64,000 bases of DNA, from contig CAVXYF010000020.1 of NCBI GenBank assembly GCA_963765835.1, positions 20,731 through 84,730 on the forward strand. The letters run 5' to 3'. The notes under the pieces are model-generated. The model searched no databases, had not been told where the DNA came from, and worked only from the letters and a program-made list of their open reading frames with translations. Shown in pieces: positions 2,748 to 16,431 of the stretch. Both the position numbers and the translations under genes were made by a program. This stretch comes from an uncultured Acidobacteriota bacterium. Lineage in GTDB: Bacteria > Acidobacteriota > Thermoanaerobaculia > UBA5066 > Gp7-AA6. How positions within the stretch are numbered: position 1 is the stretch's first letter; each line of letters opens with the position of its first letter.

Positions 2748-4082
2748 TTGAGCGGCGCGGACCTGGTCCTGACGAGCCGGAGGGTGGTGACGCCGTCCGG
2801 CACACGCGCGGCAGCGGTCGTCGTCGCGGGCGGCGTGATCGAGTCGGTCCGGGAATCGGCGCCGGCGGGCGCGCCCGTCGTGGACGTCGGCGACTCCGTC
2901 CTCATGCCGGGCCTCGTCGACACGCACGTGCACGTCAACGAGCCGGGGCGGACGGACTGGGAAGGCTTCGAGACCGCCACCCGGGCTGCGGCGGCCGGCG
3001 GCGTGACCACGATCTTCGACATGCCGCTCAACAGCGTTCCCGCGACGACGTCCTCGGAGGCGATGCGCGTCAAGCTGGCGGCGGCGGAGGGCAAGTGCTC
3101 GGTCGACGTCGGATTCTGGGGCGGGCTCGTCCCGGGCAACGCCGGAGAGCTCCGTCCCATGAAGGAGCTCGGAGCGCCCGGCTTCAAGTGCTTCCTCGTT
3201 CCGTCGGGCGTCGCGGAATTCGAGCACGTCGGGGATGGCGAGCTGGCGCACTCGCTGCGCGAGGTCGCGAGGATCGGCGCGGTGCTTCTCGTGCACGCGG
3301 AGGACCCGCGGTCGATTCGCACAACCTCGGGTGGGAGCCCACGGCAGTACGCGACCTATCTCGAGACGCGTCCACCGCGCGCCGAGGACGACGCCGTGGC
3401 GCTGCTCGTTCGGCTCTGCCGCGAGACGGGTGCCCGCATCCACGTCGTCCACCTCTCGTCGGCGGGTGCAATTGCGCAGATCGCCGGAGCCCGGGCGGAG
3501 GGGCTTCCGCTCTCGGCGGAGACGTGCCCGCACTACCTCTTCTTCGACGCGGAGGAGATCCCCGACGGCGCCACGGAGTTCAAGTGCGCTCCGCCGATCC
3601 GGGACCGCGCGAACCGCGAGCAGCTCTGGGCCGGGCTCGAGAGCGGCGCCGTCGAAATGGTGGTGTCGGACCACTCGCCCTCCCCGCCGGAGGGGAAGTG
3701 CCGCGACACCGGCGACTTTCTCGCCGCGTGGGGTGGCATATCGTCGCTTCAGCTGCGGCTGCCGGCCGTGTGGACGGCGGCGGGGCCGCGGGGTCACCCT
3801 TTCGACCGCCTCGGGGAGTGGCTGGCGGCGGCTCCGGCGCGGCTCGCCGGCCTGGGGGCGCGCAAGGGAGCCATCTCGCCCGGTTTCGACGCCGACTTCG
3901 TGGTCTGGAGACCGGAGCAGACGTTCGACGTCCGACCCGAATCGCTCCACCACCGTCACAAGCTCTCGCCCTACCTGGGACGGCCGCTCTCCGGCGTCGT
4001 GGAGTCGACGTACCTCGCGGGTGAGAAGATCTTCGAACGCGGCCGGTTCGTCGGGCCGCCGAGGGGAGAGTTACTCCTTTGA
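2748..4082 (+). CDS. allB: Allantoinase
   Basis: DTHVHVNEPGRTDWEGF, DMPLNSVP, GFKCF, ETCPHYL, FKCAPPIR and SDHSP; adjacent to allantoicase. Confidence 0.93.
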   Translation: MSGADLVLTSRRVVTPSGTRAAAVVVAGGVIESVRESAPAGAPVVDVGDSVLMPGLVDTHVHVNEPGRTDWEGFETATRAAAAGGVTTIFDMPLNSVPATTSSEAMRVKLAAAEGKCSVDVGFWGGLVPGNAGELRPMKELGAPGFKCFLVPSGVAEFEHVGDGELAHSLREVARIGAVLLVHAEDPRSIRTTSGGSPRQYATYLETRPPRAEDDAVALLVRLCRETGARIHVVHLSSAGAIAQIAGARAEGLPLSAETCPHYLFFDAEEIPDGATEFKCAPPIRDRANREQLWAGLESGAVEMVVSDHSPSPPEGKCRDTGDFLAAWGGISSLQLRLPAVWTAAGPRGHPFDRLGEWLAAAPARLAGLGARKGAISPGFDADFVVWRPEQTFDVRPESLHHRHKLSPYLGRPLSGVVESTYLAGEKIFERGRFVGPPRGELLL

Positions 4083-5065
4083 CGGATTTTACCGAACTGG
4101 TCGATCTTGCCTCCGAACGCCTGGGCGGAGCGGCAGTCTCCGCGAACGACGAGTTCTTCGCCCCCAAGGAGAACCTCGTCAAGACGGCGCCTCCGATCTT
4201 CCGGGAAGACGAGTACACCGACCGGGGCAAGTGGATGGACGGCTGGGAGACGCGGCGCCGGCGCGAGCCCGGCCACGACTGGTGCGTGGTGCGCCTCGGC
4301 CTGCCGGGCGTGATCCGCGGAATCTGCGTCGACACGGCCTTCTTCCGCGGCAACTTCCCGGAGGCCTGCTCGCTCGAGGCGGGTGATGGTCCGGACGGTC
4401 CCTGGGTCGAGGTCCTGCCGAAGTCGGCGCTGAAGGGCGATGCCGAAAACCTCTTCCCGGTCGAGAGCGGGCGCCGGACCACGCACGTGAAGCTCCACAT
4501 CTATCCGGATGGCGGCGTGGCCCGGCTGCGCGTCTACGGGCTCGTATCTCCGGAGAAGGCGTCCGTGCCGCACGCCGCGGAAATCGACCTCGCCGGGCTG
4601 GAGAACGGCGGACTCGTCGTCGCCGCGAGCGACATGTTCTTCGGCGCGAGGCACAACCTGATCCTGCCGGGCCCTCCGCTCGGCATGCACGACGGGTGGG
4701 AGACGCGGCGGCGCCGCGGGCCCGGGCACGACTGGGCTCTCCTGCGTCTGGGTCACCGCGGCGCGATCCGGCGGATCGAGGTCGACACCCGGTACTTCAA
4801 GGGGAACTCTCCGGGGAGCTGCTCGCTCGAAATCCTGGAGCAGGGTGACCCTCTCTCTCCGCAGGGGAAGTGGCGCGAAGTCCTGCCGCAGGTGCCGCTC
4901 CGGCCGGACTCCGTGCACCGGTTCGAGGCCGAGGTCCTGCCGTCGCCGGCCGCCACGCACGCGCGTTTCCACATCTACCCGGACGGGGGCGTCGCGAGGC
5001 TCCGGCTCATCGGGGAAGTCGCGGGGACAGGTCCCTTCGGGGGCCTGCACCCGCCACCGGATTAA
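4079..5065 (+). CDS. alc: Allantoicase
   Basis: Two repeats of the motif set DGWETRRRR / GHDW / VDT..F.GN / IYPDGGVARLR. The last ~15 aa are encoded by a palindromic repeat copy. Confidence 0.95.
   Translation: MTDFTELVDLASERLGGAAVSANDEFFAPKENLVKTAPPIFREDEYTDRGKWMDGWETRRRREPGHDWCVVRLGLPGVIRGICVDTAFFRGNFPEACSLEAGDGPDGPWVEVLPKSALKGDAENLFPVESGRRTTHVKLHIYPDGGVARLRVYGLVSPEKASVPHAAEIDLAGLENGGLVVAASDMFFGARHNLILPGPPLGMHDGWETRRRRGPGHDWALLRLGHRGAIRRIEVDTRYFKGNSPGSCSLEILEQGDPLSPQGKWREVLPQVPLRPDSVHRFEAEVLPSPAATHARFHIYPDGGVARLRLIGEVAGTGPFGGLHPPPD
5017..5058 (+). repeat. Dispersed palindromic repeat copy forming the 3' end of alc
   Basis: AGTCGCGGGGACAGGTCCCTTCGGGGGCCTGCACCCGCCACC; its flanks match those at 5299, 12452, 54383 and 55473. 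Confidence 0.88.
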
Positions 5066-5082
5066 ACGGTCGAGGCGTCGCC

Positions 5083-5712
5083 CTGACGGTCGCCCTCGAG
5101 GAGTTGAACGCGCTTCCCCCGACGGAGGCGCAGCGGCGATTCCTCTCCTGCTGTGGTTCGTCGGAGTGGGCGCGGCGTATGACGGAGGCGCGTCCCTTTG
5201 GAAGTGTCGAGTCGCTCGCCGAGACGGCCGACCGGACCTGGCGCGGGCTGTCGAGGCAGGACTGGCTGGAGGCGTTCCAGGCGCATCCCCCCATAGGAGT
5301 CGCGGGGACAGGTTTTAACCTGCACCCGCCGCCGAACTCAGCGGGGACAGGTTTTAACCTGCACCCGCCGCCGAACTCAGCGGGGACAGGTTTTAACCTG
5401 CACCCGCCTCCGAACTCAGCGAACTCGAACCTTGATCGGTCCGTTCACTGGGCCCGGCAGGAACAGTCCGGCACGGCGGGCGCGGACGCGGAGACGCGGG
5501 CGGGGCTCGCGCTCTTGAACCGCGAGTACGCCGAGCGGTTCGGCCACGTCTTCCTCGTCTGCGCGACCGGGAGGAGCGCGCCGGAGATGCTTGCTCTGGG
5601 GCGGCAGAGGCTCCGGAACGACCCGGCGACGGAGCTCGCGACCGCCGCGGAAGAGCAGCGTAAGATCACTCGGCTTCGGCTGGAGAAACTTCTTTCGCCG
5701 ATCGAGCGATGA
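5083..5712 (+). CDS. uraD: OHCU decarboxylase (start uncertain: CTG 5083 or TTG 5104), with an in-frame 3 x 13-aa insertion
   Basis: LNALP...FLSCCGSSEWARRM..ARPF, AFQAHPPIG, RQEQSG, Y.ERFGHVFLVCATG, EEQRKITRLRL; lies between alc and uraH. Confidence 0.9.
   Translation: MTVALEELNALPPTEAQRRFLSCCGSSEWARRMTEARPFGSVESLAETADRTWRGLSRQDWLEAFQAHPPIGVAGTGFNLHPPPNSAGTGFNLHPPPNSAGTGFNLHPPPNSANSNLDRSVHWARQEQSGTAGADAETRAGLALLNREYAERFGHVFLVCATGRSAPEMLALGRQRLRNDPATELATAAEEQRKITRLRLEKLLSPIER
5299..5418 (+). repeat. 39-bp tandem array x3 of the dispersed repeat inside uraD (encodes AGTGFNLHPPPNS x3)
   Basis: Units 5302-5340, 5341-5379 and 5380-5418 read GCGGGGACAGGTTTTAACCTGCACCCGCCGCCGAACTCA, with one mismatch in the third unit. 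Confidence 0.95.
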
Positions 5713-6044
5713 GCGCCATCACCACCCACGTCCTCGACACGTCGCGCGGGCAACCGGCCGCGGGCGTCTCGGTCACCCTCGAGTTCCTGGCCGAAGACGG
5801 GTGGAAGTGGCTCGGGGGCGGCCGGACTGACGACGACGGGCGAGTCCGGGACCTCTTCGGAGGCGATGTCCTGTTCGGGAAGTATCGCCTGACCTTCGAC
5901 ACGGGCACTTACTTCGAGTCATCCGGTACGGAAGGTTTTTTTCCGCTGGTGCAGCTCGTTTTCACGGTCCACGATCCCGAGCGGGACTATCACGTGCCCC
6001 TGCTCCTGTCGCCCTACGGCTACTCGACCTATCGCGGTTCGTGA
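5709..6044 (+). CDS. uraH: 5-hydroxyisourate hydrolase (transthyretin-like)
   Basis: N-terminal ITTHVLDTSRG and C-terminal YHVPLLLSPYGYSTYRGS. Confidence 0.96.
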   Translation: MSAITTHVLDTSRGQPAAGVSVTLEFLAEDGWKWLGGGRTDDDGRVRDLFGGDVLFGKYRLTFDTGTYFESSGTEGFFPLVQLVFTVHDPERDYHVPLLLSPYGYSTYRGS

Positions 6045-6859
6045 TGCTGGGTCGGAACAGCTACGGAAAGTCGGGAATCCGGCTCGTTCGGGTGGACCGC
6101 GCTTCCCCGGACCACGCCGTGTCCGACCTCACGGTTGCGGTCCGGCTGGAGGGCGACTTCGAGGCGGTGCACGTCGCCGGCGACAACTCCGGTCTCGTCG
6201 CGACCGACACGATGAAGAACACGGTCTACGCGCATGCGAAGGAGCTCTCCGGCCGCGAGATCGAGGACTTCGCGCTGTCGCTCTCGGACCACTTCCTCCG
6301 GGAGAACCCGTCGCTGTCGGGGTCCGAGGTGTCGATCGAGGAGCGGATCTGGGATCGCTTGAGCAGCTCCTCGTTCGAAGGGTCGCGCGAGGAACGCCGA
6401 ACCGCGCGCGCCGTCCGGTCCCGCGAAACCGCCATCCTGTGGTCGGGGCTCCGGGACCTCCTCATCCTGAAGACCGCGCACTCCGGGTTTTCGGGGTTCG
6501 CGCGGGACCGCTACACGACGCTGCCGGAGACCCGCGACCGCCTGCTGGCGACCTCGCTCACGGCGGAGTGGACGCACGCTTCCGCGGCCGGACCTTTCGT
6601 CGGGCGATGGAAGGCGGTCCGCAGCACGCTGCTCGACACCTTCGCCGGCCACGACAGCGCGTCGGTCCAGCACACGCTGTATGCGATGGGGGAGGCGGCG
6701 CTCGCGGCGCACCCCGGCATCCGGGAGATCCGTCTCACGATGCCGAACCGCCACCACCTGCTCGTGGACCTGTCCCCCTTCGGTCTGAAAAACGAGAACG
6801 AAATCTTCGTGGCCACCGCGGAGCCCTACGGACTCATCGAGGCGACGGTGACGCGGTAG
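6041..6859 (+). CDS. pucL: Cofactor-independent urate oxidase (uricase)
   Basis: NSYGKSGIRL, ATDTMKNTVY, LKTAHSGFSGF.RD.YTTLPET.DR, SVQHTLY, MPNRHH, EPYGLIEATV. Confidence 0.94.
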   Translation: MMLGRNSYGKSGIRLVRVDRASPDHAVSDLTVAVRLEGDFEAVHVAGDNSGLVATDTMKNTVYAHAKELSGREIEDFALSLSDHFLRENPSLSGSEVSIEERIWDRLSSSSFEGSREERRTARAVRSRETAILWSGLRDLLILKTAHSGFSGFARDRYTTLPETRDRLLATSLTAEWTHASAAGPFVGRWKAVRSTLLDTFAGHDSASVQHTLYAMGEAALAAHPGIREIRLTMPNRHHLLVDLSPFGLKNENEIFVATAEPYGLIEATVTR

Positions 6860-6885: not shown

Positions 6886-7188
6886 ATGGTCAAGTATCAG
6901 ACGTCGTGCGCCAAGGGACAGCAGGGAGAGATTCTCGTCAACGGCCTGTACGTCAGCGGTACGGAACCCGCGTGGATCGAGCGCGTCATCCTCGAGGAGC
7001 TGGACGCTGCGGGAAACGCCATCGGGTCCTGGACGTTCCACGTCGACCGATATGTGGATCCCGTCGTGCAGAGCTCGCAGATGCTCGTTTCCAAGATGCC
7101 GTCCGGTAGCAACGTGAAGGGCGCGCGGGCCACCGCGTACTGGATCGAGATCGACAAGGTGTCGAAGTCCGCGATCTTGAACCTCTAG
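6886..7188 (+). CDS. Hypothetical 100-aa protein
   Basis: Strong SD (AAAGGAG) upstream of ATG 6886, 26 bp after the uricase stop. No family recognised. Confidence 0.65.
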   Translation: MVKYQTSCAKGQQGEILVNGLYVSGTEPAWIERVILEELDAAGNAIGSWTFHVDRYVDPVVQSSQMLVSKMPSGSNVKGARATAYWIEIDKVSKSAILNL

Positions 7189-7227: not shown

Positions 7228-8574
7228 TTAGAGCTTCCGGCTCTTCAGGATTCTCACGAACGAGCGTCCTCGCAGCTCGTCTGAGGCGAGCCCGCTCATC
7301 TCGACGGCTTCCTCCTCCGTGATTGCCCCGCAGCCCCAGGCGCGGAGGAAGTGGTTCAACAGGCCCTGCCCGGTCGCCGCGTCGTCGAAGACTTCACCGA
7401 CGAGAGTCGCCTGGCCCGCCTTCTGGACAAAGTTCTTCAGCCTCGCCGACGCTGCATCGATCCCCTCCAGGAAGAACGCGTAGAGCGCGGCGTACCGTGT
7501 CGGGAGCTGCGCGGGGTGCAGGTCCCACCCCTGGTAGAAGCCGTGCGCGAGCGAGTGCCGGACGTGGTCGTAGTGGAGCTTCCATGCCGCGTGGACCGCC
7601 CGGCGGTTCGCCTCGGCCTCCGCAGCGCCGAGCGGGCGTCCCTCCGAAGCGCGGTGCGGCGGCACCGGTAACACGTTCGTCGAGCCGTCCGAGATCCAGA
7701 CGCCGGTGCCGGCGAGCGCGACCTGGAGAACGCTCTTGGCGAAGTCGCACGCGGGATGAGTCATCGTCTGGTACGCCGCGGTGATGTTCAGGGACGCCGT
7801 GTAGTCGTACGTGCCGAAGTGCGCGGCGACGCAGCGGCGCCGCGACGCGCCCACCAGGCGCTGGATCGACGCCGTCCCCTCATCGTCGAGGATCGCCTGC
7901 GGCGTCTCGACCATGATCTCGAACGGAAGGGCGCGTTCGGGCAGGCGGAGGTGGCGCTCGAGCTGGTCGAGCAGCTGCGCCAGCGCGGAGACCTGTTCCG
8001 CCACCGTGACCTTTGGAAGGGTGACGACGAAGTTGTCCGGCAGGCGGCCGCCGGTTTCCCGGGTCAGCGCGGTCAGGAAGAGGTCGAGCGTGCGCACCGC
8101 GCGCGCCTTCAGCTCTTCGGTGAAAGGCTTGATGCGGATCCCGAGGTAGGGCGGCAGCGTTTCGGCCGCGAGACCTCTCGCCACCTCCACCGCGGCGGAC
8201 TCCGCGTGGCCGTCCTCTTCCGCGTCGGGGCGGTTGCCGTAACCGTCCTCGAAGTCGATGCGGAAGTCCTCGACCGGCTCGCGGGAGAGCTTCCGCGCGA
8301 CACGGTCGTAAATCGTCTCGGCGAGCATCCCGGGCAGGTCGAGCGCCCGGGCGAAGTCCCCCGGCTCCGGGGCGTACTCCTCGAGGGAGCGCCGCGCGAA
8401 GGCGCCCAGCCGCGGCGCGGTGTCGGAGCGGAACACCTGGGCGCCGCCGTACACGGTGTGCACGGGCTGCCGCCGATCGGAGTCGCCCGGGAAGCGCTTC
8501 GCGAAGTCGCGGTTCGCCTCCGCGATCTGCGCCAATACCATCTGAAATTCTTCGGGCGCGAGGGTCTGCTTCAC
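7228..8574 (-). CDS. HpcH/CitE aldolase-citrate lyase superfamily protein (DUF6986-like)
   Basis: GTG start overlaps the upstream stop. Motifs VHTVYGGA, RIDFEDGYG, TLPKV, EIMVETPQ, HFGTYDY, SDGSTN, QGWDLHPAQL. Confidence 0.8.
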   Translation of the reverse strand: MKQTLAPEEFQMVLAQIAEANRDFAKRFPGDSDRRQPVHTVYGGAQVFRSDTAPRLGAFARRSLEEYAPEPGDFARALDLPGMLAETIYDRVARKLSREPVEDFRIDFEDGYGNRPDAEEDGHAESAAVEVARGLAAETLPPYLGIRIKPFTEELKARAVRTLDLFLTALTRETGGRLPDNFVVTLPKVTVAEQVSALAQLLDQLERHLRLPERALPFEIMVETPQAILDDEGTASIQRLVGASRRRCVAAHFGTYDYTASLNITAAYQTMTHPACDFAKSVLQVALAGTGVWISDGSTNVLPVPPHRASEGRPLGAAEAEANRRAVHAAWKLHYDHVRHSLAHGFYQGWDLHPAQLPTRYAALYAFFLEGIDAASARLKNFVQKAGQATLVGEVFDDAATGQGLLNHFLRAWGCGAITEEEAVEMSGLASDELRGRSFVRILKSRKL

Positions 8575-9395
8575 GGAGCCGTTTCCCTCCAGAACTGCTC
8601 GAGGAGATTTCCGGAGACGCGCCGGCGATACTCCGCCGTCGAGCGCAGGTCGTCGATCGGATTGATCTCGGCGTCCAGCGCGCGGCGGGCGTCGGCGATG
8701 CCGGCGCCGGAGGCGAGCACGGCCTCCGTCTCCGGCAGGCGCACGACCGTGGGCGCCACGCTTCCGAGCGACACGCGGGGGCGGTCGGACCGGACTGCCG
8801 CCATGACCACCTTGGAAATCGCCTGAGCCGCCCGCGTCCCGACCTTGCGGAACCACTGGCGCCCCTCGACCCGCGGGATCTCGACCGCCGTGATGAGCTC
8901 GTCGGGGCGGAGGACGCTCTGGCGATAGCCCGTGTAGAAGGAGTTGAAGGAAACGCGCCGGTCGCCGCCCGCGCTCGCGAGGATCAGGTTCGCCTCGGCG
9001 ACCGCGAGGACAGGCAGGCTGTCTCCGGCGGGGGAGCCGTTGGCGACGTTGCCGCCGAGCGTGCCGCGGTTCTGGATCTGGACTCCGCCGATCTCTCCCG
9101 CGGCCGCGGCGAGAATGGGCAGCCGGCGCCGCACGAGGGCCGAACGCATGATTTCCGTGTAGGTGGCCAGCGCGCCGATCGAGAGGGCGCCTTCCGAGAT
9201 GCCGATCCGGCGCAGCTCGGCGAGCGGCCAGAGGTCCAGGAACCTTTTGGCCGGCAGTGTCCCGAAGTTCAGTCCAACGTAGACGTCGGTGCAGCCGGCC
9301 AGCGGAACGAGGGGACCCTCGTCGCGCAACATCTCGAGCGCCTCTCGCACGGTGCGGGGCTGCAGGAGCTCGAGCCGCGAGACGGCGGTCCTCAT
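8571..9395 (-). CDS. Xanthine dehydrogenase family FAD-binding subunit
   Basis: LAGCTDV, LSIGALATY, IGGVQIQNRGTLGGNVANGSPAGD, RAAQAISKV, PIDDLRSTAEYRR. Confidence 0.9.
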   Translation of the reverse strand: MRTAVSRLELLQPRTVREALEMLRDEGPLVPLAGCTDVYVGLNFGTLPAKRFLDLWPLAELRRIGISEGALSIGALATYTEIMRSALVRRRLPILAAAAGEIGGVQIQNRGTLGGNVANGSPAGDSLPVLAVAEANLILASAGGDRRVSFNSFYTGYRQSVLRPDELITAVEIPRVEGRQWFRKVGTRAAQAISKVVMAAVRSDRPRVSLGSVAPTVVRLPETEAVLASGAGIADARRALDAEINPIDDLRSTAEYRRRVSGNLLEQFWRETAP

Positions 9396-9880
9396 GAAGA
9401 CGCCTCCGCGCGAACTCGGGGGATCCAGCGGGGGACGGCGTTGCGGTACTCCTCGTACTCGTCGCCGAACGCGCCGGCGAGGTGGGGTTCCTCGTAGAGG
9501 ATCACGAAGAGGTGAAAGACGAGCCACGCCACGGCGGCGAAGATCCCGATCGATCTCGACTCGAAGAAGAGCGCCTCTCCGACGAGCGTGGTCACGACCC
9601 CGACGTACATCGGGTTCCTCACGTAGCGGTAGAGGCCGACCGAGACCAGCTTTCGGGGAGGATCGACCGGAGCGAGCGTCCCGCGCCCCTTGCGGGCAAA
9701 GTCCACGATGCACGCGAGCAGCACGGCGGCCCCGGCCGCCATCAAGGGAACCCCGGCCCATCGCCAGGTTCCCAGGTGGGCGCTTCCGGCATCCCGGGCC
9801 GCGAGCATCCGGGGAATCCACACCACGGCCGTCCCCGGCATAAGAACCGTGAAAAACAGGGCCCGCAGGAAGAGGATCAT
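9392..9880 (-). CDS. Isoprenylcysteine carboxyl methyltransferase / PEMT-family membrane protein
   Basis: Hydrophobic helices with GRGTLAPVDPP.KLV..GLYRYVRNPMYVG and YEEPHL...FG.EYEEY...VPRWIP. Confidence 0.85.
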   Translation of the reverse strand: MILFLRALFFTVLMPGTAVVWIPRMLAARDAGSAHLGTWRWAGVPLMAAGAAVLLACIVDFARKGRGTLAPVDPPRKLVSVGLYRYVRNPMYVGVVTTLVGEALFFESRSIGIFAAVAWLVFHLFVILYEEPHLAGAFGDEYEEYRNAVPRWIPRVRAEASS

Positions 9881-10329
9881 CGCTTTTCGCGGCGCCCGCG
9901 ACGGGTCGCCGCCTGGTCCACCGCCCGGTAGATCGCGGTGTACCCGGTGCACCGGCAGATGTTCCCGGCGAGACCCCGCCGGACGTCGTCGAGGGTCGCA
10001 CCTCGCGGCAACGCCGCAGCCGCAAGAATCATCCCCGGCGTACAGATACCGCACTGCGCTCCGCCTTCGACGACGAAGGCCTCCTGCAGCGGGTGACGGC
10101 CGCCGAGTCCCTCGATCGTGGTCACGGTGCAGCCGCGCACCTGCGCGAACGGGACGAGGCACGAGTTGACCGGCATTCCGTCGACGAGGACCGTGCAGGC
10201 GCCGCACTCTCCCTCGCCGCACCCCTCCTTGGTCCCGGTCAGGCCGCACTCCTCGCGCAGGACGTCCAGCAGCCGCTTCATCGGGGCGGCCTTCACGTCG
10301 CGCGCCTTTCCGTTGAGCGCGAACCTCAC
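9877..10329 (-). CDS. Xanthine dehydrogenase family 2x[2Fe-2S] subunit
   Basis: GTKEGCGEGECGACTV, NSC, QCGICTPG and NICRCTGY; GTG start overlaps the upstream stop. Confidence 0.92.
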   Translation of the reverse strand: MRFALNGKARDVKAAPMKRLLDVLREECGLTGTKEGCGEGECGACTVLVDGMPVNSCLVPFAQVRGCTVTTIEGLGGRHPLQEAFVVEGGAQCGICTPGMILAAAALPRGATLDDVRRGLAGNICRCTGYTAIYRAVDQAATRRGRREKR

Positions 10330-12437
10330 GCGGCGGACCGGCCGGACGACGCGGCCATCACCCGCTCCGGCGTCGCCGGAATCTCGCGGACGTCGATGCC
10401 CAGGCTGCGGATCGCGTTGACGACCGCGGGAGCGGGTCCGTCGATCGGCATCTCGCCGACGCCCTTCGCGCCGAACGGCCCGTGCTCGTAGGGGTTCTCC
10501 AGGATCGCGACGTCGATCGGCGGTGTGTCGAGCGTCGTCGGCACCAGGTAGTTCGTGAGCTGCGCGTTGGCCATGCGGCCGTCCCGCATCGCGACCTCTT
10601 CGAGCAGCGCGTAGCCGAGGCCCTGCGCGGTTCCTCCCTCGATCTGGCCGGCGGCCAGCGTCGGGTGGATGGCCTTGCCGATCTCCTGGACCGCCGTGAT
10701 CCGCGTGGGCCGGATCTCGAACGTGACGGGGTCCCTCTCGACCTCGACGACGTCGCAACCCCAGCCGTACGCGCCGTACGCGTCGCCGCGGTAGGTGTCG
10801 TCGTCCCAGTAGAGGCCGTCGGGCCCGGTGTACTCCTTCGTGACGACGAGCGGCCCGTTCGCCGCGAGGTAATCGCGCGGTGACATTGTTCCGAGCTTCT
10901 GCCGGATCTCGGCCGCGCACCGTTCCAGGATCCGCCCCACGACCATGCACGTCCGCGAGGCGACCGTGGGTCCGCTGTCCGGAACGCGCGCCGTGTCCGC
11001 GGCCTCGACCTCCACGTTCTCGTAGGGGATGCCGAGCGCGTCCGCGACGATCTGCGCGTGCATGGTGCGCGTCCCCTGGCCGATCTCGGTGGAGGCGACG
11101 AGGATGCGCGCGCCGGTGGGCGTGAGCTCCAGGGAGGCCTTCGAGGCGAGCTTGACCTCCCCGCCCCCCGTGAACCCCGAGCCGTGGAAGAAGAGAGCGA
11201 GACCGATGCCCCGGTCCGTGCCGCGCCACGCCTTGCGCTTCGCGCGAAAGTCGCTCCGCTTCACCGCCTCGCGCAGCACCTTCAAGGCGCTGCAGTCCTT
11301 CTCGAGCTTCTGTCCGGTCGCGGTGGTGTCGCCCGGCCGGAAGGCGTTCGTCTCGCGCAGCCGCACCGGATCCATCTCGAGAGCCTCGGCGATCCGCTCC
11401 ATCTGCACTTCCGCTGCGAACTGCGTCTGCGGCGCGCCGAAGCCTCGGAAGGCGCCGTTCGGCGGCGTGTTGGTCCGGACGACGCGGCCGTGGATGCGGA
11501 CGTTGTCGCACCGATACGGCCCGGTCGCGTGGATCACGCCGCGCGAGAGGACGACCGGCGACAACGTCATGTAGGCCCCGCCGTCTAAGAGCACGTCGAT
11601 CTCGATCGCGGTCAGCCGTCCGTCCCGCGCGACGCCGGTCGAGTGTCGGATGACGCCCGGATGCCGCTTCGTCGTCGCAACCATGTCCTCGACGCGGTCG
11701 TACACGAGCTTGACCGGACGGCCCGACTTGATCGCGAGGATCGCGGCGTGCCCCGCGATCATGGAGGGGTACTCCTCCTTGCCGCCGAATCCGCCGCCGG
11801 TCTCGGTCTGAACGACGCGGACCTTCTCCTCCGGCAGGTCAAGAAGGACCCGGAGGGCCCGGTGGACGTAGTACGGACACTGGAGCGAGCCGTAAACCGT
11901 GACCCCGCCGTTCTCGGGCACCGCGATGACGCCGTTCGTCTCGATGTAGAGCTGCTCCTGCAGCCCGACGCGGTATTCCCCCTCGACGATACGGTCCGCC
12001 TCGGCGAGGCCGCGGGCGAGGTCCCCCTTCTCGATCACGATTTCCTTGAAGCAGAGGTCCGATTGCGCGGGGTCGTAGATCGGTTCGGACGGAACGCAGT
12101 CGATGCGGATGCCGGCTTCCGCCTCGATCAGCTTTTCCCGGTCCTCGTGCGCGATCAGCAGGATCGGCTCGGCGAAGTGTCGGATCTCGCGCTCGGCGAG
12201 ACAGGGCTGGTCGAGCTCGATCAGTGCGATCGTGTTCCGCCCCGGAATGTCGCGGCAGTCGGCGACCGTGAAGCCTTTGCGGTCGAATCCCAGATGGATC
12301 CCTGTGATCGCGCCGCGAGGAATCGTCGAGCGGATCGTCCTCGCGTGGAGCATGCCCGGAAAGGAGATGTCGTCGACGTACAGCGCCTGCCCCGTGACCT
12401 TCGCGCGCCCCTCCTTGCGGGGGACGTTCCGGCCCAC
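10326..12437 (-). CDS. Xanthine dehydrogenase family molybdopterin-binding subunit
   Basis: GGGFGGKEE, AFRGFGAPQ, EIGQG, GPTVASR, GQIEGG and GAKGVGE carry the Glu/Arg/Glu positions typical of xanthine-oxidising enzymes. An alternative start at 12509 would include a repeat copy. Confidence 0.9.
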   Translation of the reverse strand: MGRNVPRKEGRAKVTGQALYVDDISFPGMLHARTIRSTIPRGAITGIHLGFDRKGFTVADCRDIPGRNTIALIELDQPCLAEREIRHFAEPILLIAHEDREKLIEAEAGIRIDCVPSEPIYDPAQSDLCFKEIVIEKGDLARGLAEADRIVEGEYRVGLQEQLYIETNGVIAVPENGGVTVYGSLQCPYYVHRALRVLLDLPEEKVRVVQTETGGGFGGKEEYPSMIAGHAAILAIKSGRPVKLVYDRVEDMVATTKRHPGVIRHSTGVARDGRLTAIEIDVLLDGGAYMTLSPVVLSRGVIHATGPYRCDNVRIHGRVVRTNTPPNGAFRGFGAPQTQFAAEVQMERIAEALEMDPVRLRETNAFRPGDTTATGQKLEKDCSALKVLREAVKRSDFRAKRKAWRGTDRGIGLALFFHGSGFTGGGEVKLASKASLELTPTGARILVASTEIGQGTRTMHAQIVADALGIPYENVEVEAADTARVPDSGPTVASRTCMVVGRILERCAAEIRQKLGTMSPRDYLAANGPLVVTKEYTGPDGLYWDDDTYRGDAYGAYGWGCDVVEVERDPVTFEIRPTRITAVQEIGKAIHPTLAAGQIEGGTAQGLGYALLEEVAMRDGRMANAQLTNYLVPTTLDTPPIDVAILENPYEHGPFGAKGVGEMPIDGPAPAVVNAIRSLGIDVREIPATPERVMAASSGRSAA

Positions 12438-12539: not shown

Positions 12540-13682
12540 CTATTTCGGCGGTGCGCCCTTCAGTGTCCCGCTTCCGGCCGCGGCGGGCTCCTCGGTGTCA
12601 TATCCGCCGTGGTAGTGGGCCTCGTCCGGGCGCTTGATCTTGGAGTGCGAGACGATCCGGTTGCGCCGGATGCCCCGGAAGTCGTCCAGCTTCTGCCAGC
12701 CCCGGTGCGCGTTCTTCTCCAGGAACTCCTCCATCCCGCGGAGGAGGTTCTTGATGACCGTGGGTCCGACCGCGTGATCGAGCATGGCCGCGGTGCAGAC
12801 CTGGACAGTTCCGCACCCGAGCAGAAAGTAGTTCAGGGCGTGCGGGAACTCGGAGATGCCGCCGATCCCGGAGAACTCCTTGTCCTCGAACGCGCCCGTC
12901 ATCTGCGCCATCTTCGCGAGGGAGAGCGGAAGGATGGCGGGGCCGCCGAGGCCGCCGGTCGACACCAGGCCCTCCACGTTCATCTCGAACTCGAGAGTCT
13001 CCGGATCGATCACGGGCAGCGACGTGAACGTGTTGGAGGAGGAGATGGCGTCCGCGCCGCCGAGGAAGGCCCCCCGCGCCTCGACGACGATGTCGGTCGT
13101 GGACGGCGTGAGCTTCGCCCACACCGGGATCGTCGCCACTTCCTTCACCACCTGCGTGACGACCGAGATCAGCTCGTCGTCCTTTCCGATGTTCGAGCCC
13201 ATGTCCGGCCGGTCCATGTGGGGGCAGGAGAGGTTCAGCTCGAGCGCGTCGGCGCCGTCGTCCTGGCAGGCTTTCGCGAGGGTCTGCCAGTGGCGCATCT
13301 CCTCGTCGGAGCCGGAGCCCGCCATGATCGAAGCAATGAGGATCTTTTCGGGGTGCGCCTTCTTGATCCGCGCGAGGCGGCCGATCCACCAGTCGAGCGG
13401 CTTGTCCGAGATGAGCTCCCAGTTCCACGAGGAGTGGAGGGCCGCGCCCGGCTTCTTCTTCATCGAGATGTGGCCCGACGTCGGATCCGTGCGCATGAAG
13501 TTGGTCTTGGGACCCTTCACGTTGACGACGGGGTGCACGCCGATCGTCTTGGTGACCACGCCGGCCCAGCCCGCCTCGAACGCCCGGAGGATGTTCGCCT
13601 CCGACTCCGTGGGGGGCGCCGACGAGAGAAGGAAGGGATTCTCGAACCGGATCCCGGTGAACGTGACGGATAAGTCGGACAT
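12540..13682 (-). CDS. preA: Dihydropyrimidine dehydrogenase FMN subunit lacking the C-terminal ferredoxin domain
   Basis: ENPFLLSSAPPT, WAGVVTKT, NWELISD, ELNLSCPH, VWAKLTP, GGLGG, FSGIGG, VQVCTA. No CxxCxxC in the C-terminus. Confidence 0.85.
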   Translation of the reverse strand: MSDLSVTFTGIRFENPFLLSSAPPTESEANILRAFEAGWAGVVTKTIGVHPVVNVKGPKTNFMRTDPTSGHISMKKKPGAALHSSWNWELISDKPLDWWIGRLARIKKAHPEKILIASIMAGSGSDEEMRHWQTLAKACQDDGADALELNLSCPHMDRPDMGSNIGKDDELISVVTQVVKEVATIPVWAKLTPSTTDIVVEARGAFLGGADAISSSNTFTSLPVIDPETLEFEMNVEGLVSTGGLGGPAILPLSLAKMAQMTGAFEDKEFSGIGGISEFPHALNYFLLGCGTVQVCTAAMLDHAVGPTVIKNLLRGMEEFLEKNAHRGWQKLDDFRGIRRNRIVSHSKIKRPDEAHYHGGYDTEEPAAAGSGTLKGAPPK

Positions 13683-13684
13683 GG

Positions 13685-15022
13685 CTAGCTCGCTCCCGCA
13701 GCTTCGAAAGATTCGTGAAGAATCGACAGCGCTTCCGAGATTTCAGAAGCGTTGACCGTCAGAGCCGGCGCGATGCGGAATGCGTTCCCCTCGAGGCCGC
13801 CCTTGCCGATCAGGAGACCGCGCCTTCGAGCCTCTTCGAAGATCTTGTTGGTCAGCTCCTTCGCGGGCGTGCGGTCGCGAGCCGTCTCGTCGACCACGAG
13901 CTCCACCGCCTGCATGAGCCCCATGCCCCGGACGTCCCCCAGGTTCTTTGGAAACCTCCGCTTCAGCTCCTCGAGGCCGGCGCGCAGCAGATCGCCCATC
14001 GTCTGAGCATTGGCGGGCAGGCCCTCTTCCTCGATGAACTGGACGGTCGCGTTCCCCGCCGCGCACGAGATCGGGTTTCCGCCGAAGGTCGAGATCGTGA
14101 GCGACTTCAGCGACGCCGCGATCTCGGGCGTGCAGACCGTGACGCCGAGCGGGAGACCGTTCGCCACGCCCTTGGCCATCGTCATGATCTCGGGCTCGAC
14201 TCCCCAGTGCTCGATGCCCCACATCTTCGTCCCGGTGCGGCCGAAGCCGGTCTGGACCTCGTCGCAGATGAAGACTCCGCCGTACTTGCGCACGATCGCG
14301 ACCGCGGCCTCGAAGTACTCGGGCGGCGGCGTGATGAAACCCCCGACTCCCTGGATGGGCTCGGCGATGAACGCCGAGATACGGCCGGTGGTGGTCGTGC
14401 GGATGATGTCCTCGATGTCGGTCGCGCAGGCGATCCCGCACGAGGGGTACGTCAGGTGCATCGGGCAGCGGTAGCAGTACGGCGTCGGTGCGTGCTTGAT
14501 GCCGGCGATCTTGGTCGAGAGCGGCCGCCACGTGGAGTGGGCGGTCAACGATTGCGCGAGCGTCGAACGGCCCGAGTATCCGTGGCGGAGCGCGATGACT
14601 TCCGACCGCCCCGTGAAGAGCTCCGCCATCATCACGGCGGTTTCGTCCGCCTCCGTGCCCGAGGCCGTGAAGTACATCTGGCGCAACTTGCCCGGCGCGA
14701 TCCGCGCCAGCCGCTCCGCGAGCTCGACTACCGGAAGCGTGGGATAGAGCGTCGAGATGTGGGAGAGCCGGTCGACCTGCGCCTTGATCGCGGCGTTGAC
14801 CTTCTCGTTCCCATGCCCGACCGACACCGTCAGGATCCCGCCGAAGAAGTCGAGGTACTCGTTTCCGTCCGCGTCGCGCACCCGGAGCCCCTTCGCGTCC
14901 GTGACGACGATCGGCTCCTGGTAATACTGGATCGTGGCCGGGAAGAGGTACTCCTTGTGCTTCTCCCGGACGCTCTTCGTGAGGTCGGACGTGGGGCGGG
15001 TTTCGCGGCTGACAGTGCTCAT
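13685..15022 (-). CDS. Class III aminotransferase (AGXT2/PYD4-like; probable beta-alanine aminotransferase)
   Basis: YLDFFGGI.TVSVGH, SGTEADE, YSG, EPIQGVGG, DEVQTGFGRTG, MAKGVANG, STFGGNP; pathway context. Confidence 0.85.
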   Translation of the reverse strand: MSTVSRETRPTSDLTKSVREKHKEYLFPATIQYYQEPIVVTDAKGLRVRDADGNEYLDFFGGILTVSVGHGNEKVNAAIKAQVDRLSHISTLYPTLPVVELAERLARIAPGKLRQMYFTASGTEADETAVMMAELFTGRSEVIALRHGYSGRSTLAQSLTAHSTWRPLSTKIAGIKHAPTPYCYRCPMHLTYPSCGIACATDIEDIIRTTTTGRISAFIAEPIQGVGGFITPPPEYFEAAVAIVRKYGGVFICDEVQTGFGRTGTKMWGIEHWGVEPEIMTMAKGVANGLPLGVTVCTPEIAASLKSLTISTFGGNPISCAAGNATVQFIEEEGLPANAQTMGDLLRAGLEELKRRFPKNLGDVRGMGLMQAVELVVDETARDRTPAKELTNKIFEEARRRGLLIGKGGLEGNAFRIAPALTVNASEISEALSILHESFEAAGAS

Positions 15023-16431
15023 GACCTGGGACTCCTCTTCAGGAATGAGCCGGCGCCGGCTCTTCCGGTGAACTTTCCGTTCTCGACGACCACTTTGCCG
15101 CGGGAGAGGACCGTGTCGGACACTCCCGTGACCTCCCGCCCCTCGTAAGGGTTGTAGTCCACCTTCATGTGGAGCGTCTTCGCCGACAGCGTCTGTTTCC
15201 GGTTGGGGTCGAAGACGACGAGGTCCGCGTCGGAGCCCGGTGCGATCGTGCCCTTTCGGGGGAAGAGGCCGAAGATCTTCGCGGGCGACGTGGACGTCAG
15301 CTCCACGAACCGGTTCCACGAGATCTTTCCGGTCCGGACGCCTCCGTCGTGGACGAGGCTCATCCGCGTCTCGATCCCCGGCGCGCCGTTGGGGATCTTC
15401 GAGAAGTCGTCGCGGCCCAGCTCCTTCTGCTCCTTCATGCAGAACGGGCAGTGGTCCGTCGAGATGGCCTGCAGGTCGTTGGACGCGAGGCCCCGCCAGA
15501 GGCGGTCCTGCGTCTCCTTCGGCCGAAGCGGCGGGCTCATGACGTACTTCGCGCCCTCGAAGCCGGGCTCCTCGTAGTTGTCGTAGGAGAGGAAGAGGTA
15601 CTGCGGGCAGGTCTCGGCGTAGGCGGGAAGGCCGCGATCGCGCGCCTCCGTCACCATCTCGAGGGCCTCCGCCGCGGAGAGGTGGACGATGTAGATCGGA
15701 ACGCCGGCGATCTCGGCGAGAGCGATCGCCCGGTGCGTCGCCTCGGCTTCGGCGCGCGCCGGCCGGGTGAGGGCGTGGTACTTCGGAGCCGTATTCCCCT
15801 CGGCGAGCGCGCGCTGTACCAGCACGTCGATGACGCCGCCGTTCTCGGCGTGCATGCAGATCGTGCCGCCGTTCTCCCGGGTTCGCAGGAGAGCGCGGAA
15901 GATCGACGCGTCGTCCAGCATGAAGACGCCGGGGTAGGCCATGAAGAGCTTGAAAGACGTCACGCCCTCGCGGACGAGCTCGTCCATCTCGCGTTCGACC
16001 GAGTCGTTCAGGTCCGTGACGATCATGTGGAAGCCGTAGTCGATCGCGGCCTTGCCGTCGGCCTTGGCCCTCCAGGCGTCGAGCGCGTGCCGGAGCGTCT
16101 GGCCGCGGTACTGGATCGCGAAGTCGACGACCGACGTCGTGCCGCCGTGGGCCGCGGCGATCGTGCCGGACTCGAAGTCGTCCGCGGACGTCGTGCCGCC
16201 GAAGGGCATGTCGAGGTGCGTGTGGACGTCGATGCCCCCCGGGATCACGAACTTGCCGGCGGCGTCGATCGTCCGGTCGAGGGTCTGATCCGCGTGGGTC
16301 TGATCCCCGAAGGGGGTCAGATCCACATTTGGTGCCATCACCGCCGAAATCTTCTCGTCCTCGATGAGGACGTCGCCCCGGTACAAGTCGGTCGCGGTGA
16401 CGACGGTGCCGCCGCGGATCAGGGTCTTCAA
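15019..16431 (-). CDS. hydA: Dihydropyrimidinase
   Basis: GGIDVHTHLDMPFGGT, SFKLFMAY, MHAENG, ETCPQYL, YVMSPPLR, STDHCPF, IPNG.PG.ETR; TTG start overlaps the upstream stop. Confidence 0.94.
   Translation of the reverse strand: MKTLIRGGTVVTATDLYRGDVLIEDEKISAVMAPNVDLTPFGDQTHADQTLDRTIDAAGKFVIPGGIDVHTHLDMPFGGTTSADDFESGTIAAAHGGTTSVVDFAIQYRGQTLRHALDAWRAKADGKAAIDYGFHMIVTDLNDSVEREMDELVREGVTSFKLFMAYPGVFMLDDASIFRALLRTRENGGTICMHAENGGVIDVLVQRALAEGNTAPKYHALTRPARAEAEATHRAIALAEIAGVPIYIVHLSAAEALEMVTEARDRGLPAYAETCPQYLFLSYDNYEEPGFEGAKYVMSPPLRPKETQDRLWRGLASNDLQAISTDHCPFCMKEQKELGRDDFSKIPNGAPGIETRMSLVHDGGVRTGKISWNRFVELTSTSPAKIFGLFPRKGTIAPGSDADLVVFDPNRKQTLSAKTLHMKVDYNPYEGREVTGVSDTVLSRGKVVVENGKFTGRAGAGSFLKRSPRS
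16281..16325 (-). repeat. Palindromic repeat variant inserted in frame near the hydA N-terminus
   Basis: Minus strand reads GATCTGACCCCCTTCGGGGATCAGACCCACGCGGATCAGACCC (DLTPFGDQTHADQT), sharing the core of the 62327 array. Confidence 0.75.

What the first reader, a model, noticed from the sequence alone, without database searches (positions are those of the whole stretch)
7228..8574. CitE-like (DUF6986) enzyme as a candidate link between purine-derived glyoxylate and pyrimidine-derived acetyl-CoA
Seen: the last gene of the pyrimidine/Xdh operon, translationally coupled, with CitE-type ET and G..DY motifs. Established: the CitE superfamily includes malate synthase and malyl-CoA lyase; allantoin breakdown yields glyoxylate; MmsA yields acetyl-CoA from malonate semialdehyde. 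No aceB/glcB/gcl is present in the window. Inference: an unrecognised malate synthase/malyl-CoA lyase that condenses the two end-products, which would explain why the pathways are clustered.
Basis: inference. Interest (0 to 1): 0.68.

Follow-up and report, generated by a model that had tools for sequence, protein, structure and literature searches.

The report
CitE-fold enzyme in purine-breakdown clusters
An uncharacterised gene (DUF6986) with the catalytic core of malate synthase and malyl-CoA lyase sits in purine-breakdown gene clusters of several bacterial phyla, and its neighbours suggest it is not a new malate synthase but the missing enzyme that splits ureidoglycolate into glyoxylate and urea.

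Summary
Window 7228-8574 (-) encodes a 448-aa DUF6986 protein whose GTG start overlaps the stop of the upstream FAD-subunit gene. It keeps every catalytic residue of the CitE/malate-synthase superfamily, and a confident model matches those folds at only 12-19% identity.

The link to allantoin genes is real. Ureide genes lie within 10 kb in 45 of 69 close-relative loci and 25 of 36 actinobacterial-type loci with enough flank, including cultured Nocardia and Tsukamurella.

- Pyrimidine genes are neighbours in only 6 of 105 such loci.
- In 12 diverged loci DUF6986 follows a malate synthase A homologue (one scanned, above the equivalog cutoff).
- Glyoxylate carboligase genes are often in the same cluster.

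One step has no known gene in about 2 Mb of flanking DNA: ureidoglycolate to glyoxylate plus urea. DUF6986 sits beside the enzymes that make ureidoglycolate, or beside urease.

Best explanation (about 0.45): a Mg-dependent ureidoglycolate urea-lyase that works like malyl-CoA lyase on the aza-analogue of malyl-CoA. Two CoA-linked contexts keep a CoA-ester lyase as a rival.

The parts
7228..8574 (-). DUF6986 (PF22484) gene, 448 aa. It is a distinct family of the CitE/malate-synthase superfamily and the proposed ureidoglycolate urea-lyase.
   Evidence: Pfam E=3.9e-188. AF2 model with mean pLDDT 95.9. Foldseek matches CitE-like proteins, malyl-CoA lyases and malate synthases A/G/H at 12-19% identity.
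8571..8574 (-). GTGA start/stop overlap with the upstream FAD-subunit gene, consistent with translational coupling.
   Evidence: Sequence read directly.
8245..8256 (-). Codons for D107-F-E109-D110, the 'DxED' motif. In the superfamily this motif holds the catalytic Arg and the Mg-bound waters.
   Evidence: D, E and D are invariant in 73 of 73 sequences. The role is taken from PMC3832036.
8134..8136 (-). Codon for R147, in 'GIRIK'. This is the candidate catalytic Arg.
   Evidence: Invariant. It aligns with the 'GVRI' of the CitE-like protein 3r4i.
7804..7908 (-). Stretch from E223 ('VETP') to D257 ('GTYDY'), the two candidate Mg2+ ligands. Y256 precedes the Asp.
   Evidence: Both are invariant. 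They align with the Glu/Asp regions of malyl-CoA lyases, malate synthase G and AceB.
7381..7386 (-). Codons for D397-D398, in a flexible loop between two C-terminal helices. This is the candidate general acid/base, equivalent to the lid Asp.
   Evidence: D397 is invariant and D398 is D or E. Residues 391-400 have mean pLDDT 64. D398 aligns with an Asp in the C-terminal part of 3r4i.
8571..12437 (-). Mo-hydroxylase genes, xanthine-dehydrogenase-like: Mo subunit 10326-12437, 2Fe-2S subunit 9877-10329, FAD subunit 8571-9395. A PEMT/ICMT-like membrane protein gene (9392-9880) lies between the last two.
   Evidence: NCBIfam and Pfam scans. All xanthine-dehydrogenase equivalog scores are below cutoff.
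12540..18905 (-). Reductive pyrimidine-degradation genes upstream in the same direction: MmsA, beta-ureidopropionase-like CN hydrolase, dihydropyrimidinase, class III aminotransferase and a PreA-like protein. This is context only and is not a conserved neighbour of DUF6986.
   Evidence: These genes are neighbours in only 6 of 105 loci with enough flank.
2748..6859 (+). Ureide operon converging on DUF6986: allantoinase 2748-4082, allantoicase 4079-5065, OHCU decarboxylase 5104-5712, HIU hydrolase 5709-6044, uricase 6041-6859. It makes ureidoglycolate, and no known enzyme for the next step is present.
   Evidence: All five pass NCBIfam equivalog cutoffs. No AllA, AllC/UAH or AllD homologue is in the window.
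6886..7188 (+). Small ORF of 100 aa after uricase, with no family assignment.
   Evidence: No NCBIfam hit. Conserved in 4 related loci.

Best explanation
DUF6986 is a Mg2+-dependent lyase of the purine (ureide) pathway. It most likely converts (S)-ureidoglycolate to glyoxylate plus urea, which is the reaction of AllA (EC 4.3.2.3) carried out on a CitE/malyl-CoA-lyase scaffold.

Shown here:
- The fold, and the full superfamily catalytic set: D107/E109/D110, R147, E223, D257, and D397/D398 in a mobile C-terminal loop.
- The embedding in purine-catabolic clusters in at least four phyla.

Inferred mechanism:
- Ureidoglycolate, -OOC-CH(OH)-NH-CO-NH2, is the aza-analogue of malyl-CoA, -OOC-CH(OH)-CH2-CO-SCoA.
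- Its carboxylate and alpha-hydroxyl chelate the Mg2+ held by E223 and D257.
- R147 takes the hydroxyl proton and polarises the ureido carbonyl.
- The C-N bond breaks where malyl-CoA lyase breaks the C-C bond.
- The lid Asp protonates the leaving urea.
- Glyoxylate then goes to whichever consumer the organism has: malate synthase A plus malic enzyme, or Gcl-Hyi-GlxR-GlxK. In the window's organism that consumer is encoded elsewhere.
For: 1. Association with ureide genes.
- Set A (Acidobacteriota, Bacteroidota, Gemmatimonadota, Myxococcota and others): 45 of 69 loci with at least 6 kb of flank have ureide genes within 10 kb.
- Set B (actinobacterial-type metagenome loci): 25 of 36.
- Nocardia farcinica has one co-directional run: OHCU decarboxylase, HIUase, uricase, a GuaD-like gene, Xdh, DUF6986, allantoicase, PuuE.
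- Tsukamurella has Xdh, XdhC, GuaD, DUF6986 and the cupin, the last two overlapping.

2. The constant partners are the enzymes that make ureidoglycolate.
- Allantoicase is present in 42 set-A loci and 11 set-B loci.
- A cupin is present in 15 set-B loci, directly downstream of DUF6986 in 13. The Tsukamurella member was scanned and passes NF040771, 'bifunctional allantoicase/(S)-ureidoglycine aminohydrolase' (451 bits against a 350 cutoff).
- Allantoicase and the cupin never occur together.

3. No known ureidoglycolate-using enzyme is nearby. AllA, AllC/UAH and AllD give no hit better than E=0.2 in 2.07 Mb of flanking DNA or in the window.

4. In Proteobacteria AllA sits next to allantoicase. 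The gaps are 82 bp in a P. aeruginosa plasmid and 93 bp in an Ensifer replicon (coordinates). DUF6986 occupies that slot elsewhere.

5. Glyoxylate consumers vary and add up: none (window and set A), AceB (12 loci), Gcl (8 loci), or both (L112, L172, L174). Malic enzyme is also present in 9 loci.

6. The AceB-linked DUF6986 proteins keep all 11 invariant residues and are 45-74% identical to each other.

7. In Gordonia the gene is followed directly by the urease operon, which suits a urea-releasing enzyme.

8. All seven catalytic positions defined for the superfamily in PMC3832036 are conserved.
Against: - No biochemical test was possible.
- Two contexts point to CoA thioesters. In Gordonia (and metagenome locus L097) a hotdog PaaI thioesterase gene overlaps the DUF6986 start. 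In one divergent lineage (L086) the operon is a MaoC-like hydratase, a family III CoA-transferase and DUF6986.
- Every characterised member of the superfamily works on C-C bonds of CoA esters. A C-N lyase would be unprecedented there.
- Streptomyces sp. BHT-5-2 has an AceB / AllB-Alc cluster with neither AllA nor DUF6986. The ureidoglycolate step therefore need not be encoded in a cluster, and may be done by allantoicase or occur spontaneously.
- About a third of close relatives and several distant members have no purine neighbours.
- I could not inspect the model's coordinates to see whether a pantetheine tunnel exists.
- Whole-genome presence or absence of AllA could not be tested.
Confidence: 0.45

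Rival explanations
1. DUF6986 is a new type of malate synthase, or a malyl-CoA lyase working with a separate thioesterase. It would condense purine-derived glyoxylate with acetyl-CoA.
For: - The catalytic set of malate synthase and malyl-CoA lyase is complete.
- Profile and fold matches reach malyl-CoA lyases and malate synthases A, G and H.
- The residue before the Mg-binding Asp is a bulky Tyr, like the Trp of AceB and unlike the Ala of malyl-CoA lyases. PMC3832036 links a bulky residue at this position to exclusion of propionyl-CoA.
- No other glyoxylate consumer lies in the window or within 10 kb in 83 close relatives.
- In Gordonia a PaaI thioesterase gene overlaps the DUF6986 start.
- In L086 the gene is in a CoA-transferase and hydratase operon.
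- In six loci malic enzyme directly precedes DUF6986 with no AceB between them.
Against: - In 12 loci DUF6986 lies directly after a malate synthase A homologue. The one scanned is above the equivalog cutoff. In three of these loci (L112, L172, L174) a full Gcl pathway is in the same operon.
- This pairing persists across DUF6986 proteins only 45-74% identical to each other.
- Malate synthase G lies 9 kb away in Gordonia.
- Pyrimidine genes, the supposed acetyl-CoA source, are neighbours in only 6 of 105 loci.
- Scores against curated models are far below cutoff. The malyl-CoA lyase model NF041626 gives 21 bits against 500, and there is no malate synthase model hit.
Confidence: 0.2
2. DUF6986 is a beta-hydroxyacyl-CoA lyase or thioesterase with a side role. 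One example would be CLYBL-like removal of malyl-CoA or a related CoA ester formed when glyoxylate and acetyl-CoA are abundant. Another would be a lyase for a different 2-oxoacid and acyl-CoA pair.
For: - Fold match to human CLYBL (5vxc, TM 0.52 for the query and 0.75 for the target) and to Mycobacterium-type CitE-like lyases.
- The L086 and Gordonia contexts involve CoA enzymes.
- Stand-alone members outside purine clusters suggest a more general role.
- It could coexist with AceB without being redundant.
Against: - It does not explain why the conserved partners are allantoicase or the cupin, urate oxidase and Xdh rather than AceB. In 83 close relatives no AceB lies within 10 kb.
- No CoA-handling gene is nearby in 170 of about 173 loci.
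Confidence: 0.12
3. DUF6986 is a pyruvate- or 2-oxoacid-dependent class II aldolase of the HpcH/HpaI type. It would join glyoxylate to pyruvate, for example to give 4-hydroxy-2-oxoglutarate.
For: - A weak PF03328 hit.
- Malic enzyme, which makes pyruvate, lies upstream in 9 loci.
Against: - The DxED motif and the C-terminal lid Asp are CitE/malate-synthase features.
- The profile and fold matches listed are CitE-like proteins, malyl-CoA lyases and malate synthases. No characterised pyruvate aldolase is among the 24 profile hits or the top 50 fold hits. The two entries titled 'HpcH/HpaI aldolase' (4l7z, 6kin) are the Chloroflexus and Roseiflexus malyl-CoA lyases.
- No enzyme for the product is encoded nearby.
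Confidence: 0.05
4. DUF6986 is an accessory or maturation factor of the Mo-hydroxylase, standing in for XdhC.
For: - It lies directly downstream of Xdh genes in 19 loci, often with overlapping stop and start.
- The window operon has no XdhC.
Against: - It keeps an invariant Mg-binding and acid-base catalytic set typical of an enzyme.
- It occurs with ureide genes but without Xdh within 10 kb in many loci: ureide genes in 45 loci against Xdh in 30 in set A.
- It coexists with XdhC in Tsukamurella.
Confidence: 0.03

Closest known systems
Malyl-CoA lyase and other CitE-like beta-hydroxyacyl-CoA lyases (R. sphaeroides Mcl1 4L9Y/4L9Z, C. aurantiacus 4L80, M. extorquens 5UGR, human CLYBL 5VXC)
   Same: - TIM-barrel core with a C-terminal lid.
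- The DxED motif, the catalytic Arg, the Glu and Asp Mg ligands, and an Asp in a mobile C-terminal element.
- The proposed mechanism copies the retro-aldol step of these enzymes.
   Different: - Only 14-18% identity.
- 448 aa against about 320-350, with an extra N-terminal helical region of about 100 residues.
- Tyr instead of Ala before the Mg-binding Asp.
- Extra family-specific invariant polar residues: R247, D351, R360, R378.
- Far below the NCBIfam cutoff, 21 bits against 500.
- The proposed substrate is not a CoA ester, and the bond broken is C-N.
Malate synthases A, G and H (E. coli AceB 3CUZ, GlcB 1P7T, Haloferax 3OYX)
   Same: - The same superfamily and catalytic residues.
- 'LPK', 'ET' and 'G-x-aromatic-D-Y' motifs that align with AceB residues 210-283 (hhalign probability 92%).
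- Glyoxylate is the Mg-bound ligand.
   Different: - 12-15% identity.
- The window protein gives no PF01274 or TIGR01344 hit. Some homologues have a weak PF01274 hit on record.
- It sits in tandem with a malate synthase A homologue in 12 loci, so it is not a substitute for one.
Ureidoglycolate lyase AllA (EC 4.3.2.3, PF04115)
   Same: - The proposed reaction.
- The genomic slot next to allantoicase in purine clusters (compared).
   Different: - No sequence similarity.
- Different size: about 160 aa against 448.
- DUF6986 is proposed to work like AllA, not to be a member of its family.
Uncharacterised CitE-like proteins 3QQW (Reut_B4148) and 3R4I (Bxe_B2899)
   Same: The best structural and profile matches: Foldseek E=5e-9 for 3QQW and 1.6e-8 for 3R4I, hmmsearch E=1.3e-7 for 3R4I.
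   Different: - 15-19% identity.
- They are about 330 aa and their function is also unknown, so they give no functional transfer.

Membership tests
Pfam DUF6986 (PF22484) | Full-length match to the family HMM above the gathering score. | tested here: met
   625.8 bits against a cutoff of 27, covering residues 18-442 of 448.
CitE-like / malate synthase superfamily | beta8/alpha8 TIM barrel with a C-terminal lid domain. | tested here: met
   AF2 model with pLDDT 95.9. Every one of the top 50 Foldseek PDB hits is a CitE-like protein, a malyl-CoA lyase or a malate synthase.
CitE-like / malate synthase superfamily | Glu and Asp ligands of Mg2+ (Glu141 and Asp168 in R. sphaeroides MCL; PMC3832036). 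| tested here: met
   E223 and D257 are invariant in 73 of 73 sequences. They align with the corresponding regions of MCL, MSG and AceB.
CitE-like / malate synthase superfamily | The D-x-E-D motif (Asp42, Glu44, Asp45) and the catalytic Arg (Arg76). | tested here: met
   D107, E109, D110 and R147 are invariant. They align with 'LDCEDG' and 'GVRI' of 3r4i.
CitE-like / malate synthase superfamily | A catalytic Asp (or Glu) in the C-terminal lid (Asp299 in MCLR). | tested here: inconclusive
   D397 is invariant and D398 is D or E. They lie in a loop of low pLDDT between C-terminal helices, and D398 aligns with an Asp of 3r4i. Its position over the active site could not be checked without coordinates.
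Malate synthase (A/G/H) | Match to PF01274, TIGR01344 or TIGR01345 above cutoff. | tested here: not met
   The window protein gives no such hit. The similarity to AceB is remote and found only at profile level.
Malate synthase (A/G/H) | It acts as the glyoxylate consumer of its pathway, so it should replace rather than accompany a canonical malate synthase. | tested here: not met
   It lies in tandem with a malate synthase A homologue in 12 loci, three of them (L112, L172, L174) also with Gcl-Hyi-GlxR. The L174 homologue was scanned and passes the equivalog cutoff.
Malate synthase (A/G/H) | Acetyl-CoA plus glyoxylate gives malate plus CoA. | not testable with these tools
   This needs an enzyme assay.
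Malyl-CoA lyase | Match to a curated model (NF041626), and a small residue (Ala) before the Mg-binding Asp. | tested here: not met
   21.4 bits against a cutoff of 500. The residue is Tyr256, and it is Tyr in 61 of 73 members.
Ureidoglycolate lyase AllA (PF04115) | Homology to AllA. | tested here: not met
   No similarity was found. The claim is that it works like AllA, not that it is a member.
Ureidoglycolate lyase (function, EC 4.3.2.3) | (S)-ureidoglycolate gives glyoxylate plus urea. | not testable with these tools
   The support is from context only.

The most novel reading that the evidence does not exclude
A whole family of the malate-synthase/malyl-CoA-lyase superfamily has switched from C-C chemistry on CoA esters to C-N cleavage of a small ureide. 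It would be the non-homologous replacement of AllA that completes purine nitrogen recovery in Acidobacteriota, Actinomycetota, Bacteroidota and others. This would be the first non-CoA, C-N lyase in that superfamily, and it would fill a gap in the ureide pathway of these phyla.
Probability: 0.45. Interest if true: 0.75.

Novelty: new variant of a known kind. Interest (0 to 1): 0.62.

Why it matters
- The step from ureidoglycolate to glyoxylate releases the last two of the four purine-ring nitrogens. In many soil phyla no gene for it is annotated.
- DUF6986 is large. It has 705 clusters at 50% identity with E<1e-30 and more than 8000 clusters at 90% identity.
- Sources label it variously 'citrate lyase beta subunit', 'aldolase' or 'phosphoenolpyruvate kinase'. 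No paper in the searched library mentions it.
- Assigning it would correct thousands of annotations and improve metabolic models of nitrogen recycling in soil Acidobacteriota and Actinomycetota.
- If the C-N lyase idea holds, it would show a new reaction type on a well-studied catalytic scaffold.
- If the enzyme instead turns out to use a CoA ester, it would be a fourth kind of malate-synthase-like enzyme. That would be less surprising, but still new.

Tried and rejected
- An exact-sequence look-up of the window protein found no contig on record. Context came from homologues instead.
- Literature searches gave nothing. I tried 'DUF6986', 'phosphoenolpyruvate kinase' (all unrelated), combinations of citrate lyase, allantoicase and Xdh, ureidoglycolate with CitE or HpcH, and UGlyAH2.
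- The Deinococcus lead did not hold. PMC1978522 describes a 'second malate synthase', DR1155/Dgeo_2611, next to two cyclic amidases. No Deinococcus record was among the six plasmid-collection matches. I did not verify that the D. geothermalis megaplasmid is in that collection, so the lead is dropped rather than disproved.
- The NCBI label 'phosphoenolpyruvate kinase' has no NCBIfam model behind it. It probably comes from the superfamily name. That last point is my inference, not something tested.
- The terminator and promoter scan of 6800-19600 found nothing beyond chance.
- CoA-binding residues cannot be tested by sequence. PMC3832036 says CoA is held mostly by backbone and non-conserved basic residues.
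- Distant family members (L085, L089, L179-L183) gave uninformative contexts.
- Xdh-chaperone and pyruvate-aldolase readings were considered and ranked low (see the rival explanations).
Full report
**The gene.** Window 7228-8574 on the minus strand is a clear coding ORF. Its GC3 is 0.90 and it is the best frame. Its GTG start overlaps the TGA stop of the upstream gene as GTGA at 8574-8571. The 448-aa product matches Pfam DUF6986 over its full length (E=3.9e-188). It also gives a weak HpcH_HpaI/citrate-lyase hit just below cutoff and a 21-bit hit to a malyl-CoA lyase model whose cutoff is 500.

**The window's neighbourhood.** Ten co-directional genes on the minus strand, with 4-nt overlaps or short gaps, end in DUF6986:
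- MmsA
- a CN-hydrolase
- dihydropyrimidinase
- a class III aminotransferase
- a PreA-like protein
- the three subunits of a Mo-hydroxylase, with a PEMT-like membrane protein gene inserted between two of them
- DUF6986 itself

The Mo-hydroxylase scores below every xanthine-dehydrogenase cutoff, so 'Xdh' rests on context. Converging from the plus strand is a complete ureide operon: allantoinase, allantoicase, OHCU decarboxylase, HIU hydrolase and uricase. All five are above equivalog cutoffs. Neither AceB, GlcB, Gcl, AllA, AllC nor AllD has a homologue anywhere in the window.

**Superfamily.** An alignment of 59 diverse members, later extended to 73, has invariant D107, E109, D110, R147, K188, E223, D257, D351, R360, R378 and D397. 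D398 is D or E. PMC3832036 defines the catalytic set shared by CitE-like enzymes and malate synthases:
- an Asp-x-Glu-Asp motif
- a catalytic Arg
- Glu and Asp ligands of Mg2+
- an Asp in a C-terminal lid

DUF6986 has a counterpart for each. A profile of the family finds the CitE-like protein 3r4i (E=1.3e-7), malyl-CoA lyases (about 1e-6 to 1e-4) and malate synthases G and A (about 5e-4). hhalign against E. coli AceB gives 92% probability over the LPK / ET / G-x-W-D-Y region. The AlphaFold model is confident, with pLDDT 95.9 and pTM 0.92. Its best PDB matches are 3qqw, 3r4i, malate synthase A, malyl-CoA lyases, Haloferax malate synthase, malate synthase G and CLYBL, all at 12-19% identity. The protein is therefore a separate family inside this superfamily. 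It is not a member of any characterised family.

**Context in close relatives.** Set A comprises 83 loci from species genomes and metagenome contigs. They are mostly Acidobacteriota, with Bacteroidota, Ignavibacteria, Gemmatimonadota and Myxococcota. Among the 69 with at least 6 kb of flank:
- ureide genes lie within 10 kb in 45
- Xdh genes in 30
- pyrimidine genes in 5
- AceB, GlcB, Gcl, AllA, AllC and AllD in none

Where uricase is missing, a PuuD-like membrane urate hydroxylase is present (34 loci). In Bacteroidota and Ignavibacteria the gene lies in one direction with allantoinase, allantoicase and OHCU decarboxylase, directly after the last.

**Context in cultured Actinomycetota** (and follow-ups):
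- Nocardia farcinica has one run: OHCU decarboxylase, HIUase, uricase, a GuaD-like gene, Xdh, DUF6986, allantoicase, PuuE.
- Tsukamurella has Xdh, XdhC, GuaD and DUF6986, whose end overlaps a cupin gene. The cupin passes the NCBIfam model 'bifunctional allantoicase/(S)-ureidoglycine aminohydrolase'.
- Paenarthrobacter has a PuuE-like gene, DUF6986 and an NCS1 permease.
- Gordonia has a PaaI thioesterase gene overlapping DUF6986, followed by the urease operon.

**The decisive set.** A metagenome scan led by the actinobacterial sequences gave 80 loci, set B. Among them:
- DUF6986 is directly preceded on the same strand by a malate synthase A homologue in 12 loci.
- It is followed by the cupin in 13-15 loci.
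- It is clustered with GlxR in 15 loci, Hyi in 12, Gcl in 8 and GlxK in 6.
- A malic enzyme gene lies upstream in 9 loci.

L174 reads: OHCU decarboxylase, HIUase, uricase, (IclR), malic enzyme, AceB, DUF6986, cupin, Hyi, GlxR, Gcl, GlxK, AllB. Its AceB scores 711 bits on TIGR01344 against a cutoff of 594.5. The 12 AceB-linked DUF6986 proteins keep all invariant residues. They are 45-74% identical to each other, so the tandem is old. Allantoicase and the cupin never occur in the same locus.

**What this means.** The association is strong and spans phyla. The two specific predictions fail, however. The pyrimidine link is rare. The gene also accompanies canonical glyoxylate consumers rather than replacing them, sometimes two in one operon.

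One step has no known gene in any of about 173 loci (2.07 Mb): ureidoglycolate to glyoxylate. AllA, UAH/AllC-type and AllD homologues give no hit better than E=0.2. In Proteobacteria AllA sits within 100 bp of allantoicase (coordinates). DUF6986 sits in that position elsewhere, next to whichever enzyme makes ureidoglycolate. In Gordonia it sits next to urease.

Chemically, ureidoglycolate is malyl-CoA with CH2 replaced by NH and SCoA replaced by NH2. The malyl-CoA lyase mechanism described in PMC3832036 could therefore release urea instead of the acetyl-CoA enolate. In that mechanism Mg binds the hydroxy-acid, Arg acts on the hydroxyl, and Asp exchanges a proton with the leaving group. This transfer of mechanism is inference.

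**Caveats.**
- Two contexts involve CoA enzymes: the Gordonia thioesterase, and the L086 operon of MaoC-like hydratase, CoA-transferase and DUF6986. L086 is a lone divergent lineage, at most 44% identical to any other member.
- Streptomyces sp. BHT-5-2 has AceB and AllB-Alc with neither AllA nor DUF6986, so the step can go unencoded in a cluster.
- In Nonomuraea the gene is unlinked to the purine cluster.
- Several distant members stand alone.
- I could not inspect coordinates for a pantetheine tunnel.
- I could not run whole-genome phyletic profiles.

**Verdict.** The best explanation, at about 0.45, is a CitE-fold ureidoglycolate urea-lyase. A malate synthase or malyl-CoA lyase is at about 0.2, another CoA-ester role at about 0.12, and minor rivals are below that. 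No characterised member or paper was found. The family is large, with 705 clusters at 50% identity and E<1e-30, and it is inconsistently named.

Noticed in passing
window 9392-9880 (-): A PEMT/ICMT-like membrane methyltransferase gene is wedged, with 4-nt overlaps, between the 2Fe-2S and FAD subunit genes of the Mo-hydroxylase. It is conserved in relatives: two tandem copies in L002 and L003, one in L006. There is no obvious role in an Xdh operon.
   Followed up: partly
window 12540-13682 (-): The PreA-like dihydropyrimidine dehydrogenase subunit matches only positions 1-330 of the 422-position PreA profile. That leaves the C-terminal part of the profile unmatched, which I take from memory to be the 4Fe-4S region. 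The score is below cutoff (302.8 < 335) and there is no PreT partner in the operon. The gene lies directly upstream of the Mo-hydroxylase genes, so its electron partner is unclear.
   Followed up: no
window 10326-12437 (-): The Mo-hydroxylase large subunit scores below every xanthine-dehydrogenase equivalog cutoff (pucD 485 against 783.65). Calling it Xdh rests on the purine-cluster context.
   Followed up: partly
window 6886-7188 (+): A 100-aa ORF after uricase has no NCBIfam match. It is conserved in 4 related loci.
   Followed up: partly
window 1520-3322 (-) vs 2748-4082 (+): The longest ORF of the PLP-dependent decarboxylase overlaps the allantoinase gene by 575 nt. Its real start is probably internal, since the homologue in L002 is 493 aa.
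   Followed up: no
L093 8504-14856 (Gordonia polyisoprenivorans p174); also L097: A hotdog PaaI-family thioesterase gene overlaps the start of DUF6986, and the urease operon follows directly. Malate synthase G lies about 9 kb upstream.
   Followed up: partly
L086 3065-6498: In a divergent DUF6986 lineage the gene ends an operon of a MaoC-like hydratase and a family III CoA-transferase. The arrangement looks like itaconate or mesaconate-type CoA-ester degradation.
   Followed up: partly
homologues P0033, P0054, P0064 and others: NCBI names close homologues 'phosphoenolpyruvate kinase' and JGI names them 'citrate lyase beta subunit'. Neither name is backed by a curated model hit here.
   Followed up: partly
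L104, L112, L115, L120, L128, L134, L135, L162, L174: An ACT-domain NAD(P)-malic enzyme gene lies directly upstream of AceB-DUF6986, or of DUF6986 itself, in actinobacterial-type purine clusters. With AceB this suggests glyoxylate oxidation through malate to pyruvate.
   Followed up: partly
L011 5744-6562 and 33 other set-A loci: A PuuD-like membrane urate hydroxylase replaces soluble uricase in most Pyrinomonadaceae-type clusters.
   Followed up: partly
L070 11604-13280 and 29 other set-A loci: A secreted zinc metallopeptidase of about 558 aa (HExxH motif) lies directly downstream of DUF6986 in Pyrinomonadaceae-type loci. This is probably lineage synteny without a functional link.
   Followed up: no
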